From a virus, in IMG/VR virus record IMGVR_UViG_3300045988_088524, positions 1 to 38,670 of that record: a DNA stretch of 38,670 nucleotides, one strand, 5' to 3'. Positions 36,509 to 37,615 of the stretch are shown here, piece after piece. The notes below the pieces were generated by a model. That model was given only the letters and a program-made list of their open reading frames with translations. It was not told where the DNA came from and did no database searches. A program made the translations under genes and the position numbers. Numbering within the stretch: position 1 is the stretch's first letter; each line of letters begins with the position of its first letter.

Positions 36509-37615
36509 ATGGAAAACACTACAAGAGGTAAGATGACCGCAGTAATCGGTGCGCAGTACGGCTCTGAGGGTAAGGGTGCAATTGTTCGCCACATCGCAAA
36601 TGACTATCAGGTACACGTTAGAGTCGGCAGCCCTAATGCAGGACATACCATTTACTGGAATGGTGAAAAGCACATCATGCAGTCTATCCCTTGTGGCTGG
36701 ATAAACCCCGATGCAATTATCATAATCGGCAGAGGTGCGCTGCTTAACATGAAGCAGCTTATGTCAGAGCTGGAGCACATCGAAAAATACTACCCCGATT
36801 TCAGGGAGCGTTTCTTCATTGATGCCGAGGCTGGTGTACTTGACGAAAAGTTTCATGAACAGGAGGGCGGCATTTATGGGGAGATGCACCGCAGAATAGG
36901 CTCCACCGGTGAGGGCGTTGGTCCTGCACGTGTAGCCCGCATCAATCGTGACCCCAAGCAGTTCCGCCTCTTTAAGGACGTGGCGGTGGAGTACGGGCTG
37001 ACGAAATGCAAGTTTATAAACACCCCCTATTTCATCGCAACTATGCAGGACAGCGGCAGTAATATACTGCTTGAGGGTACACAGGGTTCGGGTCTTTCAT
37101 TGCTGCATTCTCATTGGCCCTACTGCACCAGCATTGACACGAACGCAGCAGGCATCATGTCTGAGGTTGGCCTTGCCCCCTCAAGATTAACTGATGTACT
37201 GCTCGTGGCACGTACATTCCCCATCAGAGTTGCTGGTAACTCGGGTCCCATGGAGAACGAAACATCATGGGACGAAATCTCCGAACTGGTTGGTCACCCT
37301 GTAACAGAAAAGACTACTGTTACGAAGAAAACCCGTCGTGTAGCTTTTTGGGATGATGGAGTATTTGACGCAGCATGTATGCTGAATGCACCCACCGAAA
37401 TCGCACTGACATTTGCGGATTATGTTGACCCTGGTATTGCAAACGTCAGCGGTAAAATGGAAACACTTGAAATGCTGTCGAAGACGTATCCCAAAATCGT
37501 TAATTTTGTCAACACACGCTCCTCTACGTTAGCAGAAAAACTCAAGTACATTAGCACGGGCCCTGACTCGATAATTGAAATCAACAGGATAGGAGCTAAC
37601 ACAGATGGCGAGTAA
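36509..37615 (+). CDS. purZ: adenylosuccinate synthetase homologue, PurZ-like
   Basis: Contains VIGAQYGSEGKGA, SPNAGHT, IGSTGEGVGPA, LEGTQGSGLS, TRRVAFWD, TFAD and ISTGPD. 368 aa. RBS CAGGAGGA. Confidence 0.65.
   Translation: MENTTRGKMTAVIGAQYGSEGKGAIVRHIANDYQVHVRVGSPNAGHTIYWNGEKHIMQSIPCGWINPDAIIIIGRGALLNMKQLMSELEHIEKYYPDFRERFFIDAEAGVLDEKFHEQEGGIYGEMHRRIGSTGEGVGPARVARINRDPKQFRLFKDVAVEYGLTKCKFINTPYFIATMQDSGSNILLEGTQGSGLSLLHSHWPYCTSIDTNAAGIMSEVGLAPSRLTDVLLVARTFPIRVAGNSGPMENETSWDEISELVGHPVTEKTTVTKKTRRVAFWDDGVFDAACMLNAPTEIALTFADYVDPGIANVSGKMETLEMLSKTYPKIVNFVNTRSSTLAEKLKYISTGPDSIIEINRIGANTDGE

What the first reader, a model, noticed from the sequence alone, without database searches (positions are those of the whole stretch)
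36509..37615. Phage adenylosuccinate-synthetase homologue with PurZ-type deviations (candidate first enzyme of 2-aminoadenine synthesis)
This 368-aa ORF aligns block by block with PurA. The shared blocks are VIGAQYGSEGKGA, SPNAGHT, IGSTGEGVGPA, LEGTQGSGLS, TRRVAFWD and ISTGPD. It differs from PurA in three ways. It is roughly 60 aa shorter than bacterial PurA. It has Ser where the canonical GDEGKGK loop has its catalytic Asp. It has TFAD where PurA has the guanine-specificity (S/T)KxD box. A lytic phage has no obvious need for AMP synthesis. Reduced phage-borne PurA homologues of this kind are the PurZ enzymes, which convert dGMP plus Asp to N6-succino-2-amino-dAMP. PurZ initiates 2-aminoadenine (Z) synthesis in cyanophage S-2L and vibriophage PhiVC8. 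Which substitutions are diagnostic is recalled from memory, not computed here.
Basis: partly seen in the sequence, partly recalled or inferred. Interest (0 to 1): 0.9.

Follow-up and report, generated by a model that had tools for sequence, protein, structure and literature searches.

The report
Gut-phage PurZ0-like aminoadenine synthesis cassette
This phage gene most likely encodes the first enzyme for replacing adenine with 2-aminoadenine (Z) in the phage's DNA, a known trick, but here in a new, uncultured lineage of gut phages and next to the helper genes that usually go with it.

Summary
The 368-aa ORF at 36509-37615 is real and is a PurA-superfamily enzyme (Pfam E=6e-51). It has Ser where PurA has catalytic Asp13, and this Ser is invariant across its clade. 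The 'TFAD' box keeps the guanine-binding Asp, as in archaeal PurA and GTP-type PurZ0. ATP-type PurZ has Asn or Gln there.

A Dut-like gene overlaps the ORF's 3' end and groups with characterised DutZ dATP/dGTP pyrophosphatases (94% bootstrap). A DUF5664 gene follows it and wraps around the circular genome end. A family-A polymerase and a conserved HAD phosphatase lie upstream. This cassette recurs on every related contig examined.

The enzyme forms its own well-supported clade. It is 30-38% identical to known PurZ0 and PurZ. It fails NCBI's curated PurZ cut-off (237 vs 300 bits; six references score 346-421). No cultured relative exists. The terminase and lysis genes point to a gut Clostridia host.

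One caveat: Ser-type PurA homologues also occur in a widespread cellular operon, so the Ser alone does not prove Z-DNA.

Verdict: a new lineage of a known system. Z-DNA is inferred, not shown.

The parts
36509..37615 (+). PurZ0-like succino-2-amino-deoxyadenylate synthase (368 aa). It has a Ser-type P-loop (GAQYGSEGKG), a PIRVAGNSGPM loop, Lys at PurA Arg303, and a TFAD box that keeps the guanine-binding Asp.
   Evidence: AlphaFold model (pLDDT 79) and Foldseek search.
36494..36499 (+). AGGAGG ribosome-binding site, 9 nt upstream of the ATG at 36509. It supports the 368-aa start over the in-frame ATG at 36485.
   Evidence: The ENA gene call uses the same start.
37605..38045 (+). DutZ-like trimeric-dUTPase-fold protein (146 aa), predicted dATP/dGTP (and dUTP) diphosphatase. 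It overlaps the end of the PurZ0-like gene by 11 nt.
   Evidence: PF00692 E=5e-27. 46% identical to the Ghobes gp55 Dut-like enzyme. Best phage matches are all PurZ0 actinophages. Groups with actinophage DutZ at 94% bootstrap against 8 canonical phage Duts.
38142..38670 (+). DUF5664 (PF18909, dATP/dGTP diphosphohydrolase N-terminal family) gene, 5' part. The 202-aa ORF runs off the window end and continues at 76-155.
   Evidence: PF18909 68 bits against a cut-off of 27. Matches Wayne gp51 at E=5e-9.
76..155 (+). DUF5664 gene, 3' end, after the 75-nt terminal repeat that closes the genome.
   Evidence: the window's first 75 nt equal its last 75 nt, and the gene was reconstructed from locus L001.
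36100..36507 (+). Small capless HAD phosphatase (135 aa, BT0820/2obb family) with DxD motif VDFDG. Conserved directly upstream of the PurZ0-like gene across the clade. Its role is unknown; a dNMP (dAMP) phosphatase is a hypothesis.
   Evidence: NF046079 E=2e-28. 2obb E=1e-15. Clade alignment. The family is widespread in non-Z phages.
34207..35976 (+). Family-A DNA polymerase with 3'-5' exonuclease domain (589 aa), the likely replicase of the cassette. It is not a member of either known DpoZ group.
   Evidence: PF00476 and PF01612. DpoZ_1 model 168 bits against a cut-off of 500; DpoZ_2 model 52 against 350. 24-27% identical to DpoZ references. Best phage match is Cellulosimicrobium phage DS1 at 30%.
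32286..32867 (+). HD-domain metal-dependent phosphohydrolase (193 aa), conserved in the module. It is not a DatZ homologue, and its membership in the pathway is uncertain.
   Evidence: PF01966 E=3e-8. phrog_28876 E=3.5e-56. No DatZ match in PDB. hhalign against DatZ gives probability 3%.
27021..28832 (+). PrimPol-AAA_25 primase/helicase (603 aa), genomic context. Arthrobacter phage Wayne has the same pairing of a PrimPol-helicase with a PolA.
38596..38670 (.). 75-nt direct repeat of window positions 1-75. The genome is complete (circularly closed or terminally redundant), unique length 38,595 bp.

Best explanation
The ORF encodes a PurZ0-type succino-2-amino-deoxyadenylate synthase. It condenses dGMP with aspartate to give N6-succino-2-amino-dAMP, with GTP as phosphate donor. 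It is the core of a co-transcribed cassette: PolA, HAD, PurZ0-like, DutZ-like, DUF5664. The DutZ-like and DUF5664 enzymes convert dGTP to dGMP, which feeds the synthase, and dATP to dAMP, which removes the competitor. Host PurB and nucleotide kinases finish dZTP. The phage polymerase then builds DNA in which A is largely or wholly replaced by 2-aminoadenine.

Shown here: the sequence features, the gene content, the synteny and the phylogenetic affinities. Inferred: the substrates, the phosphate donor, and the presence of Z in virion DNA.
For: 1. Active site. Ser replaces PurA Asp13, while H41, K16, N38, T129, R143, Q224, T239, V273, T301 and R305 are kept. The Ser is invariant in 23 clade members. 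PMC12884076 reports Ser in 100% of 147 phage PurZ/PurZ0 sequences and Asp in 99% of cellular PurA.
2. Phylogeny. The Ser-type group separates from P. horikoshii and E. coli PurA at 97-100% bootstrap.
3. Shared loop features. The query and PurZ0 share the PIRVAGNSGPM loop, with a 2-residue insertion relative to PurA, and Lys at Arg303. PMC8342488 links changes in this loop and at Arg303 to exclusion of ribonucleotides.
4. Phosphate donor. The Asp equivalent to E. coli D333 is retained in TFAD, as in PurZ0 and archaeal PurA. PurZ has Asn or Gln there, which contact adenine N6.
5. DutZ. The downstream Dut-like protein groups with actinophage DutZ at 94% bootstrap. All 98 known PurZ0 genomes carry dutZ, and the Ghobes and Wayne enzymes hydrolyse dATP and dGTP.
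6. DUF5664. PF18909 at 68 bits. Its closest match is Wayne gp51, which has dATP/dGTP/dUTP diphosphatase activity.
7. Synteny. The cassette is conserved on L002, L003, L012, L013, L014, L016 and L017.
8. Fold. The predicted structure matches P. horikoshii PurA (E=1.9e-25) and PurZ0 7vf6 (E=3.2e-24) best.
Against: The protein scores 237 bits on the curated PurZ model NF038379 (cut-off 300), whereas six reference PurZ/PurZ0 enzymes score 346-421. It scores slightly higher (249) on the archaeal-type PurA model. It is only 30-38% identical to any characterised PurZ or PurZ0. Its position relative to the PurZ0 and PurZ clades is unresolved. Ser-type PurA homologues also occur in a widespread cellular operon that has no link to phage DNA, so Ser13 is not sufficient evidence. 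No DmtZ, DatZ, MazZ, DUF550 or PurB is present. The polymerase is not a recognised DpoZ. There is no biochemical or DNA-composition evidence.
Confidence: 0.7

Rival explanations
1. The enzyme makes a 2-aminoadenine-type (succino-guanylate-derived) nucleotide but does not recode the genome. It could have the same unknown function as the cellular Ser-type PurA homologues (the AAA_18-fusion/DUF7002/NUDIX operon). It could act on GMP rather than dGMP. Or it could give only partial Z substitution.
For: Cellular Ser-type homologues are as similar to the query (35-42% identity) as characterised PurZ0 is (33-38%). The query scores higher on the archaeal PurA model than on the PurZ model, as the cellular fusion does. 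The deep branching order is unsupported. No recognised DpoZ, DatZ or DmtZ is present to enforce adenine exclusion.
Against: The cellular fusions form a separate clade at 100% bootstrap. They have a 4-7 residue loop insertion and retain Arg303, unlike the query and PurZ0. None of about 50 cellular loci carries Dut, DUF5664 or PolA neighbours, while the query's relatives L016 and L017 do. The DutZ affinity (94% bootstrap) ties the cassette to phages reported to have Z-DNA.
Confidence: 0.17
2. It is an ATP/dATP-dependent PurZ of the S-2L / phiVC8 / SH-Ab 15497 type.
For: It has Ser at Asp13 and belongs to the Ser-type group. Lys331 of the bacterial (S/T)KxD box is absent.
Against: The position that reads adenine in PurZ (Q308 in S-2L, N297 in phiVC8) is Asp here, as in GTP-using PurA. 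The P-loop is GSEGKG, not the GSTGKG of PurZ. The PurZ clade has 100% bootstrap and excludes the query. The PurZ companions DatZ, MazZ and DUF550 are absent, and the PurZ0 companions DutZ and DUF5664 are present.
Confidence: 0.08
3. It is an ordinary auxiliary PurA that boosts AMP synthesis (IMP + Asp + GTP gives adenylosuccinate) during infection.
For: PMC12884076 places only 147 of its 481 phage PF00709 homologues in the PurZ group, so many phage PurA homologues are not PurZ. The query scores 249 bits on the archaeal-type PurA model, and the GTP-box Asp is intact.
Against: The catalytic base Asp13, 99% conserved in PurA, is Ser and is invariant in the clade. Arg303, which contacts the IMP 2'-OH and aspartate, is Lys. 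The score is below the PurA model cut-off (249 vs 368). All 150 nearest representative clusters that can be read at that position have Ser or Gly, never Asp.
Confidence: 0.03

Closest known systems
PurZ0 and its gene cluster in actinophages: Gordonia phages Archimedes (PDB 7VF6) and Ghobes, Arthrobacter phage Wayne, Streptomyces phage Hiyaa (Tong et al. 2023, cited in PMC12884076; PMC12884076)
   Same: Ser at Asp13 and Glu at position 14. The guanine-binding Asp is retained. The PIRVAGNSGP(M/L) loop has the same length, and Arg303 is Lys. The size is similar (363-379 aa). The gene order PolA ... PurZ0 ... DUF5664/Dut matches, and a PrimPol-helicase is also present. The Dut-like partner belongs to the same DutZ group (94% bootstrap), and the DUF5664 partner is closest to Wayne gp51.
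   Different: Identity is only 33-38%, and the query forms a separate clade at 97-99% bootstrap. The P-loop is GSEGKG rather than GSEAKG. It scores 237 bits on the PurZ model, against 346-374 for actinophage PurZ0. There is no DmtZ (NDT-like) gene. A HAD phosphatase is conserved upstream instead. The PolA is not DpoZ-1. The host is probably gut Clostridia rather than Actinomycetota. No cultured representative exists.
PurZ of cyanophage S-2L, vibriophage phiVC8 and Acinetobacter phage SH-Ab 15497 (PDB 7ODX, 6FM1)
   Same: Same superfamily and the same Ser-for-Asp13 change. Predicted to use the same dGMP and aspartate substrates. phiVC8 also has Lys at Arg303.
   Different: PurZ has Thr at position 14, and Asn or Gln at the D333 position, which makes it ATP/dATP-dependent. 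The query has Glu and Asp. PurZ phages carry DatZ plus MazZ or DUF550, and none of these is present here. Identity is 29-33%.
Archaeal-type short PurA (Pyrococcus horikoshii PH0438; PDB 5K7X, 2D7U)
   Same: It is the best sequence match (E=9e-47) and the best fold match (TM 0.81) among solved structures. It has the same short architecture, lacking the bacterial insertions. Its GTP box also lacks Lys (TMLD vs TFAD).
   Different: It has the catalytic Asp13 and Arg303, and lacks the 2-residue loop insertion. It is a genuine IMP-dependent AMP-pathway enzyme. It lies outside the Ser-type group (97-100% bootstrap).
Cellular Ser-type PurA homologues: the AAA_18-PurA-like fusions next to DUF7002 (and NUDIX in Pseudomonas). 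These are uncharacterised as far as the searched literature shows.
   Same: They share the GQYGSEGKG P-loop with Ser and a TF(A/V)DY box with Asp. Identity to the query is 35-42%.
   Different: They are fused to a kinase-like domain, have a 4-7 residue insertion in the PIRV loop, and retain Arg303. They lie in non-prophage chromosomal contexts and never sit next to Dut, DUF5664 or PolA. They form a separate clade at 100% bootstrap.

Membership tests
PurZ/PurZ0 group (2-amino-adenylosuccinate synthetases) | Ser replaces the catalytic Asp13 of PurA (100% of 147 phage members; PMC12884076) | tested here: met
   Ser19 aligns with Asp13 and is invariant in 23 clade members. This feature is also met by cellular non-phage homologues, so it is necessary but not sufficient.
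PurZ/PurZ0 group (2-amino-adenylosuccinate synthetases) | Groups phylogenetically with PurZ and PurZ0, to the exclusion of genuine PurA | tested here: met
   NJ trees give 97% (153 sequences) and 100% (50 sequences) for the Ser-type group against P. horikoshii and E. coli PurA. There were only two outgroup sequences, the method was distance-based, and the group also contains cellular proteins.
PurZ/PurZ0 group (2-amino-adenylosuccinate synthetases) | Passes the curated NCBIfam model NF038379 (amino_Aden_PurZ, cut-off 300 bits) | tested here: not met
   The query scores 236.7 bits, and clade members P0059 and P0012 score 243 and 248. References score as follows: Ghobes 346, Wayne 367, Hiyaa 374, phiVC8 397, S-2L 350, SH-Ab 15497 421.
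PurZ/PurZ0 group (2-amino-adenylosuccinate synthetases) | Catalyses dGMP + Asp + NTP to give N6-succino-2-amino-dAMP, and virion DNA contains Z | not testable with these tools
   This needs an enzyme assay and LC-MS/MS of virion DNA.
PurZ0 subtype | A guanine-nucleotide pocket like archaeal PurA (specificity Asp retained; GTP as donor) | tested here: met
   The TFAD box keeps the Asp aligned with E. coli D333. PurZ0 has SFAD or TMLD, P. horikoshii PurA has TMLD, and PurZ has NFCN, NFAQ or NFAN. This is a sequence-level test only. GTP use by PurZ0 is taken from Tong et al. 2023 (from my own knowledge; the paper was not readable here) and from the wording of bioRxiv 10.1101/2025.10.22.683976.
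PurZ0 subtype | Falls inside the monophyletic PurZ0 clade of PMC12884076 | tested here: inconclusive
   The actinophage PurZ0 clade (100%) excludes the query clade (97-99%). Their relationship has less than 70% support.
PurZ0 subtype | The genome carries dutZ (98 of 98 PurZ0 genomes) | tested here: met
   The Dut-like gene at 37605-38045 groups with actinophage DutZ at 94% bootstrap against 8 canonical phage Duts. Its top phage matches are all PurZ0 phages.
PurZ0 subtype | The genome carries dmtZ (NDT-like; 85 of 98 genomes, so frequent but not universal) | tested here: not met
   tblastn with Ghobes gp53 and the N-terminal domains of Wayne and Hiyaa finds nothing in the window. hhalign of the HAD or HD proteins against DmtZ gives probability 0.3%.
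PurZ subtype (ATP-type: S-2L, phiVC8) | Asn or Gln at the D333 position, a GSTGKG P-loop, and DatZ plus MazZ or DUF550 partners | tested here: not met
   The query has Asp and GSEGKG. It has no DatZ, MazZ or DUF550. The PurZ clade (100%) excludes the query.
Adenylosuccinate synthetase PurA (archaeal type, NF003295) | Curated cut-off of 368 bits, catalytic Asp13 and Arg303 | tested here: not met
   The score is 249 bits. Asp13 is Ser and Arg303 is Lys.
DpoZ (Z-selective family-A polymerase) | Passes NF038380 (DpoZ_1, cut-off 500) or NF038381 (DpoZ_2, cut-off 350), or clusters with either DpoZ group | tested here: not met
   Scores are 168 and 52 bits. Identity to SH-Ab, Wayne and phiVC8 polymerases is 24-27%. 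The best phage match is the Cellulosimicrobium phage DS1 PolA at 30%. No single diagnostic residue for DpoZ is known (PMC8599892), so Z-selectivity itself is untested.
DUF5664 (PF18909, dATP/dGTP diphosphohydrolase N-terminal family) | Pfam gathering threshold of 27 bits | tested here: met
   68.4 bits, E=5.6e-19. It is closer to Wayne gp51 (E=5e-9) than to the SH-Ab 15497 fusion protein (E=0.1).

The most novel reading that the evidence does not exclude
This clade may be a third, independently assembled Z-genome lineage. It is large: more than 120 protein clusters at 90% identity, on contigs of about 35-48 kb. It appears to be gut-associated and to infect Bacillota (Clostridia). Its synthase is the phage enzyme closest to archaeal PurA, which would make it the least derived. 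Its polymerase would be a third, independent Z-compatible PolA. The conserved HAD phosphatase would take the place of DmtZ and DatZ by dephosphorylating the dAMP that DutZ and DUF5664 produce. If so, a substantial fraction of gut-virome DNA would carry a non-canonical base that goes unnoticed in sequence data.
Probability: 0.3. Interest if true: 0.65.

Novelty: new member of a known kind. Interest (0 to 1): 0.45.

Why it matters
2-aminoadenine genomes are the only known case of a complete change to a Watson-Crick base pair in natural DNA. The hosts listed by PMC12884076 are Pseudomonadota, Cyanobacteriota and Actinomycetota. If this cassette works as inferred, Z-DNA extends to an abundant, uncultured clade of probable Clostridia phages from gut metagenomes.

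Three consequences would follow. Restriction-based and some sequencing-based virome methods would be affected. A synthase intermediate between archaeal PurA and PurZ0 would be available for evolutionary and engineering work. There would be new candidates for the polymerase and for dAMP removal.

Separately, a widespread cellular operon built around a Ser-type PurA homologue shows that the Ser signature used in the literature to call 'dZ phages' is not specific to phages.

Tried and rejected
- Megablast of window 20000-38670 against 50,697 phage records found no match. No close cultured relative exists.
- Butyrivibrio virus Ceridwen has the best large-terminase (TerL) match at 52%, but shares only the structural module. 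It has no PolA, PurA-like or Dut genes.
- I tested the HD protein (32286-32867) as a DatZ candidate and rejected it. It has no PDB DatZ match and no BLAST match, and hhalign gives probability 3%, aligning only the generic H...HD motif.
- I tested the HAD protein as a disguised DmtZ and rejected it. hhalign gives probability 0.3%, and it is a clear BT0820-type HAD with a DxD motif.
- tblastn of DmtZ, DatZ, MazZ-1/2, DUF550 and Hiyaa PurB against the circularised window found only the DUF5664 match.
- I tried to resolve whether the clade is sister to PurZ0, PurZ or the cellular family using two bootstrapped NJ trees. The deep nodes had less than 70% support. No maximum-likelihood tree software was available.
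- The Tong et al. 2023 PurZ0 paper is not held in the library. The GTP-donor statement therefore rests on my own knowledge, on indirect wording, and on the residue pattern.
- DUF7002 has no PDB homologue and no paper in the library. The cellular operon has no significant PADLOC match.
- An 'Enterococcus phage' hit that might have been a deposited Bacillota PurZ phage turned out to be a canonical GDEGKG PurA in an UNVERIFIED_ORG record.
- Promoter and terminator scans around the cassette were at or near shuffle expectation (6 vs 5.7 promoter-like sites; 10 vs 5.4 terminator-like sites) and were not used.
- There are no tRNAs in the window.
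Full report
OBSERVATION

The ORF at 36509-37615 (+) is real. An AGGAGG ribosome-binding site lies 9 nt upstream of its ATG, and the ENA gene call on the source contig uses the same start. It matches Pfam PF00709 (adenylosuccinate synthetase) at E=6.4e-51.

Alignment with E. coli PurA confirms the three stated deviations:
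- The protein is 368 aa, against 432 aa for E. coli PurA.
- Ser occupies the position of catalytic Asp13.
- T-F-A-D occupies the position of T330-K331-L332-D333.

The remaining catalytic and substrate residues are conserved (K16, N38, H41, T129, R143, Q224, T239, V273, T301, R305). The exception is Arg303, which is Lys.

WHOLE-WINDOW CONTEXT

The first 75 nt of the window equal its last 75 nt. The window is therefore a complete phage genome of 38,595 unique bp. It is identical to an ENA metagenome scaffold.

The minus strand from 1 to about 20,600 encodes the small and large terminase subunits, an SPP1-type portal, a MuF-like protein, a capsid protein, tail genes and a GH25 lysin. The plus strand from about 20,800 to the end encodes replication and nucleotide-metabolism genes. 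In order these are: DUF932, an SNF2 helicase, an HTH protein, a PrimPol-AAA_25 primase/helicase, a C5-cytosine methyltransferase, a PD-(D/E)XK nuclease, an HD phosphohydrolase, an AAA_24 protein, DUF669, a family-A polymerase, a small HAD phosphatase, the PurA homologue and a Dut-like protein.

The source contig shows one more gene that the window cuts. It is a 202-aa DUF5664 (PF18909) protein that starts at 38142 and wraps to 76-155. Pfam gives it 68 bits against a cut-off of 27.

No integrase or recombinase was seen among the ORFs scanned, and no tRNA. No deposited phage has similar DNA.

WHAT KIND OF PurA HOMOLOGUE IS IT

Among solved structures the best sequence matches are, in order:
- archaeal PurA of Pyrococcus horikoshii, E=9e-47
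- PurZ0 of Gordonia phage Archimedes (7vf6), E=3e-42, aligned over the full length
- phiVC8 PurZ, E=1e-37
- bacterial PurA, about E=1e-30
- S-2L PurZ, E=1.5e-23

An AlphaFold model (pLDDT 79, pTM 0.83) gives the same order by fold: 5k7x at 1.9e-25, 7vf6 at 3.2e-24, 6fm1 at 1.8e-20 and 7odx at 6e-19.

The literature defines the PurZ group by Asp13 to Ser. PMC12884076 reports Ser in 100% of 147 phage sequences, against 99% Asp in cellular PurA. The query has this Ser, and it is invariant in 23 clade members.

An exhaustive search of 1.84 billion representative proteins found 615 with E<1e-30. Of the best 150, every one readable at that column has Ser (two have Gly) and none has Asp.

In bootstrapped NJ trees the Ser-type group separates from P. 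horikoshii and E. coli PurA at 97% and 100%.

SUBTYPE

The alignment says otherwise. The specificity Asp is retained, as in archaeal PurA (TMLD) and actinophage PurZ0 (SFAD, TMLD). ATP-dependent PurZ has NFCN, NFAQ or NFAN. In the S-2L structure that Gln or Asn contacts adenine N6 and would clash with a guanine 2-amino group.

The P-loop is GSEGKG. PurZ has GSTGKG and actinophage PurZ0 has GSEAKG.

The query shares two further features with PurZ0. One is the loop PIRVAGNSGPM, which has the same length and a 2-residue insertion relative to PurA. The other is TTVTKK, with Lys at Arg303. PMC8342488 links this region to loss of the contact with the ribose 2'-OH, and so to deoxynucleotide preference.

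The enzyme is therefore PurZ0-like, predicted to use dGMP, aspartate and GTP. GTP use by PurZ0 comes from my knowledge of Tong et al. 2023, which I could not read here. It is consistent with the wording. PMC12884076 contains a sentence that appears to invert the two donors and contradicts that paper's own introduction.

LIMITS OF MEMBERSHIP

The query scores 237 bits on NCBI's curated PurZ model, whose cut-off is 300. It scores 249 bits on the archaeal-type PurA model, whose cut-off is 368.

I calibrated this with reference sequences:
- Six reference PurZ/PurZ0 enzymes score 346-421 on the PurZ model and only 131-189 on the PurA model.
- Two other members of the query's clade behave like the query: 243 and 248 on the PurZ model, and 276 on the PurA model.

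The labelled tree gives separate, well-supported clades: PurZ at 100%, actinophage PurZ0 at 100%, and the query clade at 97%, or 99% with the binned phage contig L016. The order among them has less than 70% support. Identity to any characterised enzyme is 30-38%.

The clade is therefore a distinct phage lineage, less derived from archaeal PurA than the known PurZ0 enzymes.

COMPANION GENES

PMC12884076 reports that all 98 PurZ0 genomes carry dutZ. This Dut-like enzyme hydrolyses dATP and dGTP (and dUTP) to the monophosphates. Of those genomes, 85 also carry dmtZ, and the Arthrobacter phages carry DUF5664, which has a similar diphosphatase activity.

Here the Dut-like ORF overlaps the synthase stop codon by 11 nt. 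The evidence on it is as follows:
- It keeps all the canonical dUTPase motifs.
- It is 46% identical to Ghobes gp55.
- Its best matches among 1,243 phage records are all PurZ0 actinophages.
- It groups with five actinophage DutZ sequences at 94% bootstrap, excluding eight canonical phage Duts.

The DUF5664 protein is closest to Wayne gp51, at E=5e-9.

No homologue of DmtZ, DatZ, MazZ, DUF550 or PurB is detectable.

The PolA is not a recognised DpoZ. It scores 168 and 52 bits against cut-offs of 500 and 350. Its best phage match is a Cellulosimicrobium phage polymerase at 30% identity. DpoZ has no single diagnostic residue. S-2L manages without a selective polymerase, and E. coli Klenow does not discriminate A from Z. 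A dedicated DpoZ is therefore not required.

CONSERVATION OF THE CASSETTE

More than 120 protein clusters at 64-83% identity exist in metagenomes, many on contigs of 35-48 kb.

Five relative contigs were examined (L002, L003, L012, L013, L014). All show PolA, a small ORF and the PurA-like gene followed by Dut. Where the contig extends further they also show DUF5664 downstream and the PD-(D/E)XK, HD, AAA_24 and DUF669 genes upstream. The small ORF is the same HAD phosphatase in each, with its DxD and DD motifs intact. More distant relatives, L016 (63%) and L017 (54%), also carry Dut, PolA and PrimPol.

The HAD family (BT0820, PDB 2obb) is widespread in phages with no PurA homologue. Its role here is only a hypothesis.

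HOST AND HABITAT (INFERENCE)

The large terminase is closest to those of Butyrivibrio virus Ceridwen (52%), human-faecal contigs, and Flavonifractor and Faecalibacterium phages. Lysis genes in the clade are of Gram-positive types: GH25, Amidase_2-SPOR, Glucosaminidase-PG_binding_1 and an r1t-type holin. Sample labels and one 'MAG TPA Caudoviricetes' entry suggest gut metagenomes. I did not verify the BioSamples.

Ceridwen lacks the replication and nucleotide-metabolism cassette. PMC12884076 lists Z-phage hosts in Pseudomonadota, Cyanobacteriota and Actinomycetota.

AN IMPORTANT CAVEAT FOUND ON THE WAY

A scan of 185,579 species genomes with the Ser-type P-loop found 473 relatives. Of the 80 kept, about 50 are fusions of 530-590 aa: an AAA_18 kinase-like domain joined to a Ser-type PurA domain, next to a DUF7002 gene. 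In Pseudomonas a second AAA_18 protein and a NUDIX hydrolase are also present. These loci lie on large chromosomal contigs flanked by ordinary genes, so they are not prophages.

The fusions form a clade of their own at 100% bootstrap. They have a 4-7 residue insertion in the PIRV loop and retain Arg303. None has Dut, DUF5664 or PolA nearby.

Ser13 is therefore not sufficient to infer a Z-genome. The inference for this window rests on the combination of Ser13, the PurZ0-like loop and Lys303, and the DutZ, DUF5664 and PolA cassette in a phage genome.

VERDICT

The most likely reading (about 0.7) is a PurZ0-type first enzyme of 2-aminoadenine synthesis within a Wayne-like but independently diverged cassette. 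The main rival (about 0.17) is that this Ser-type enzyme makes a related nucleotide without recoding the genome. An ATP-type PurZ (about 0.08) and an ordinary PurA (about 0.03) are unlikely.

It is a new lineage of a known system. Interest is moderate. What is missing is chemistry on the DNA and the enzymes.

Noticed in passing
L088 6885-10268 (Pseudomonas sp. nanlin1 chromosome NZ_CP124218.1, about 1,594,800-1,598,200). Similar loci include L024, L025, L033-L037, L043, L053, L058-L073 and L094.: A widespread cellular operon, not a prophage: an AAA_18 kinase-like protein, a 559-aa fusion of AAA_18 with a Ser-type PurA-like domain, DUF7002, and a NUDIX hydrolase in Pseudomonas. It occurs in about 50 of the 80 genome loci kept, across Pseudomonadota, Acidobacteriota, Chloroflexota, Planctomycetota, Myxococcota, Verrucomicrobia and one Thermoplasmata MAG. 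The PurA domain has Ser at Asp13 but keeps Arg303 and has a loop insertion. There is no significant PADLOC match, no paper mentioning DUF7002, and no PDB homologue of DUF7002. It could be a cellular pathway for a 2-aminoadenine-type nucleotide. Its function is unknown.
   Followed up: partly
L018-L021, L023, L028, L047, L085 (Saccharibacteria, Patescibacteria and Nanoarchaeota MAGs): Unfused Ser-type PurA homologues (about 350-430 aa), with the same PIRVAGNSGP loop as PurZ0, sit on CPR and DPANN MAG contigs. No Dut, DUF5664, PolA or terminase was detected within 8 kb. They may be the organisms' own enzymes or unrecognised phage contigs.
   Followed up: no
window 1-75 and 38596-38670: An exact 75-nt terminal direct repeat. 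The window is a complete, circularly closed or terminally redundant phage genome of 38,595 bp, and one gene (DUF5664) spans the junction.
   Followed up: yes
window 36100-36507: A small capless HAD phosphatase (BT0820 family) is conserved immediately upstream of the PurZ0-like gene in L002, L003, L012, L014 and L016, with its catalytic motifs intact. The same family occurs in many phages without PurZ (Listeria, Bacillus, Bacteroides, Porphyromonas), where it is often annotated 'phosphoheptose isomerase'. Its substrate is unknown. A dAMP/dNMP phosphatase role would complement DutZ.
   Followed up: partly
window 29340-31037: A 565-aa C5-cytosine DNA methyltransferase whose Pfam match spans residues 1-555 on a 324-position model, so it has a large insertion. 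Relative L002 has a radical-SAM gene at the equivalent position. A cytosine methylase could protect GC-only restriction sites, which 2-aminoadenine cannot protect.
   Followed up: no
window 38142-38670 plus 76-155: The DUF5664 protein has Cys-rich N- and C-terminal extensions (CKGCNEFMC...; C..C..CSCGG..KC). The C-terminal one is shared by all three clade relatives aligned and the N-terminal one by L014 only. Both are absent from Wayne gp51. They may be zinc-binding modules.
   Followed up: no
L105 286-744 (Campylobacter phage CP21) compared with window 37605-38045: The best Dut matches outside PurZ0 phages are in CP21-like Campylobacter phages (40% identity). From my own knowledge, these phages replace deoxyguanosine with modified bases. 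This hints that some Dut-like enzymes in phages with modified DNA are purine-dNTP pyrophosphatases. They did not group with DutZ in the small tree (11% support).
   Followed up: partly
L015 (Butyrivibrio virus Ceridwen) compared with window 12750-20615: The terminase, portal and MuF-like genes have counterparts in a cultured Butyrivibrio phage (TerL 52% identical). The replication and nucleotide-metabolism half is unrelated. This is clear modular mosaicism, and the Z-type module was acquired separately from the virion module.
   Followed up: partly
[quoted passage not shown]: [quoted passage not shown] The order is probably inverted.
   Followed up: partly
L096 5887-7305 (OR846603.1, 'Enterococcus phage Efs 1-1-1', UNVERIFIED_ORG): This 'phage' record carries a full-length canonical PurA (GDEGKG, 473-aa reading frame). 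It is more likely bacterial sequence than a phage gene.
   Followed up: partly
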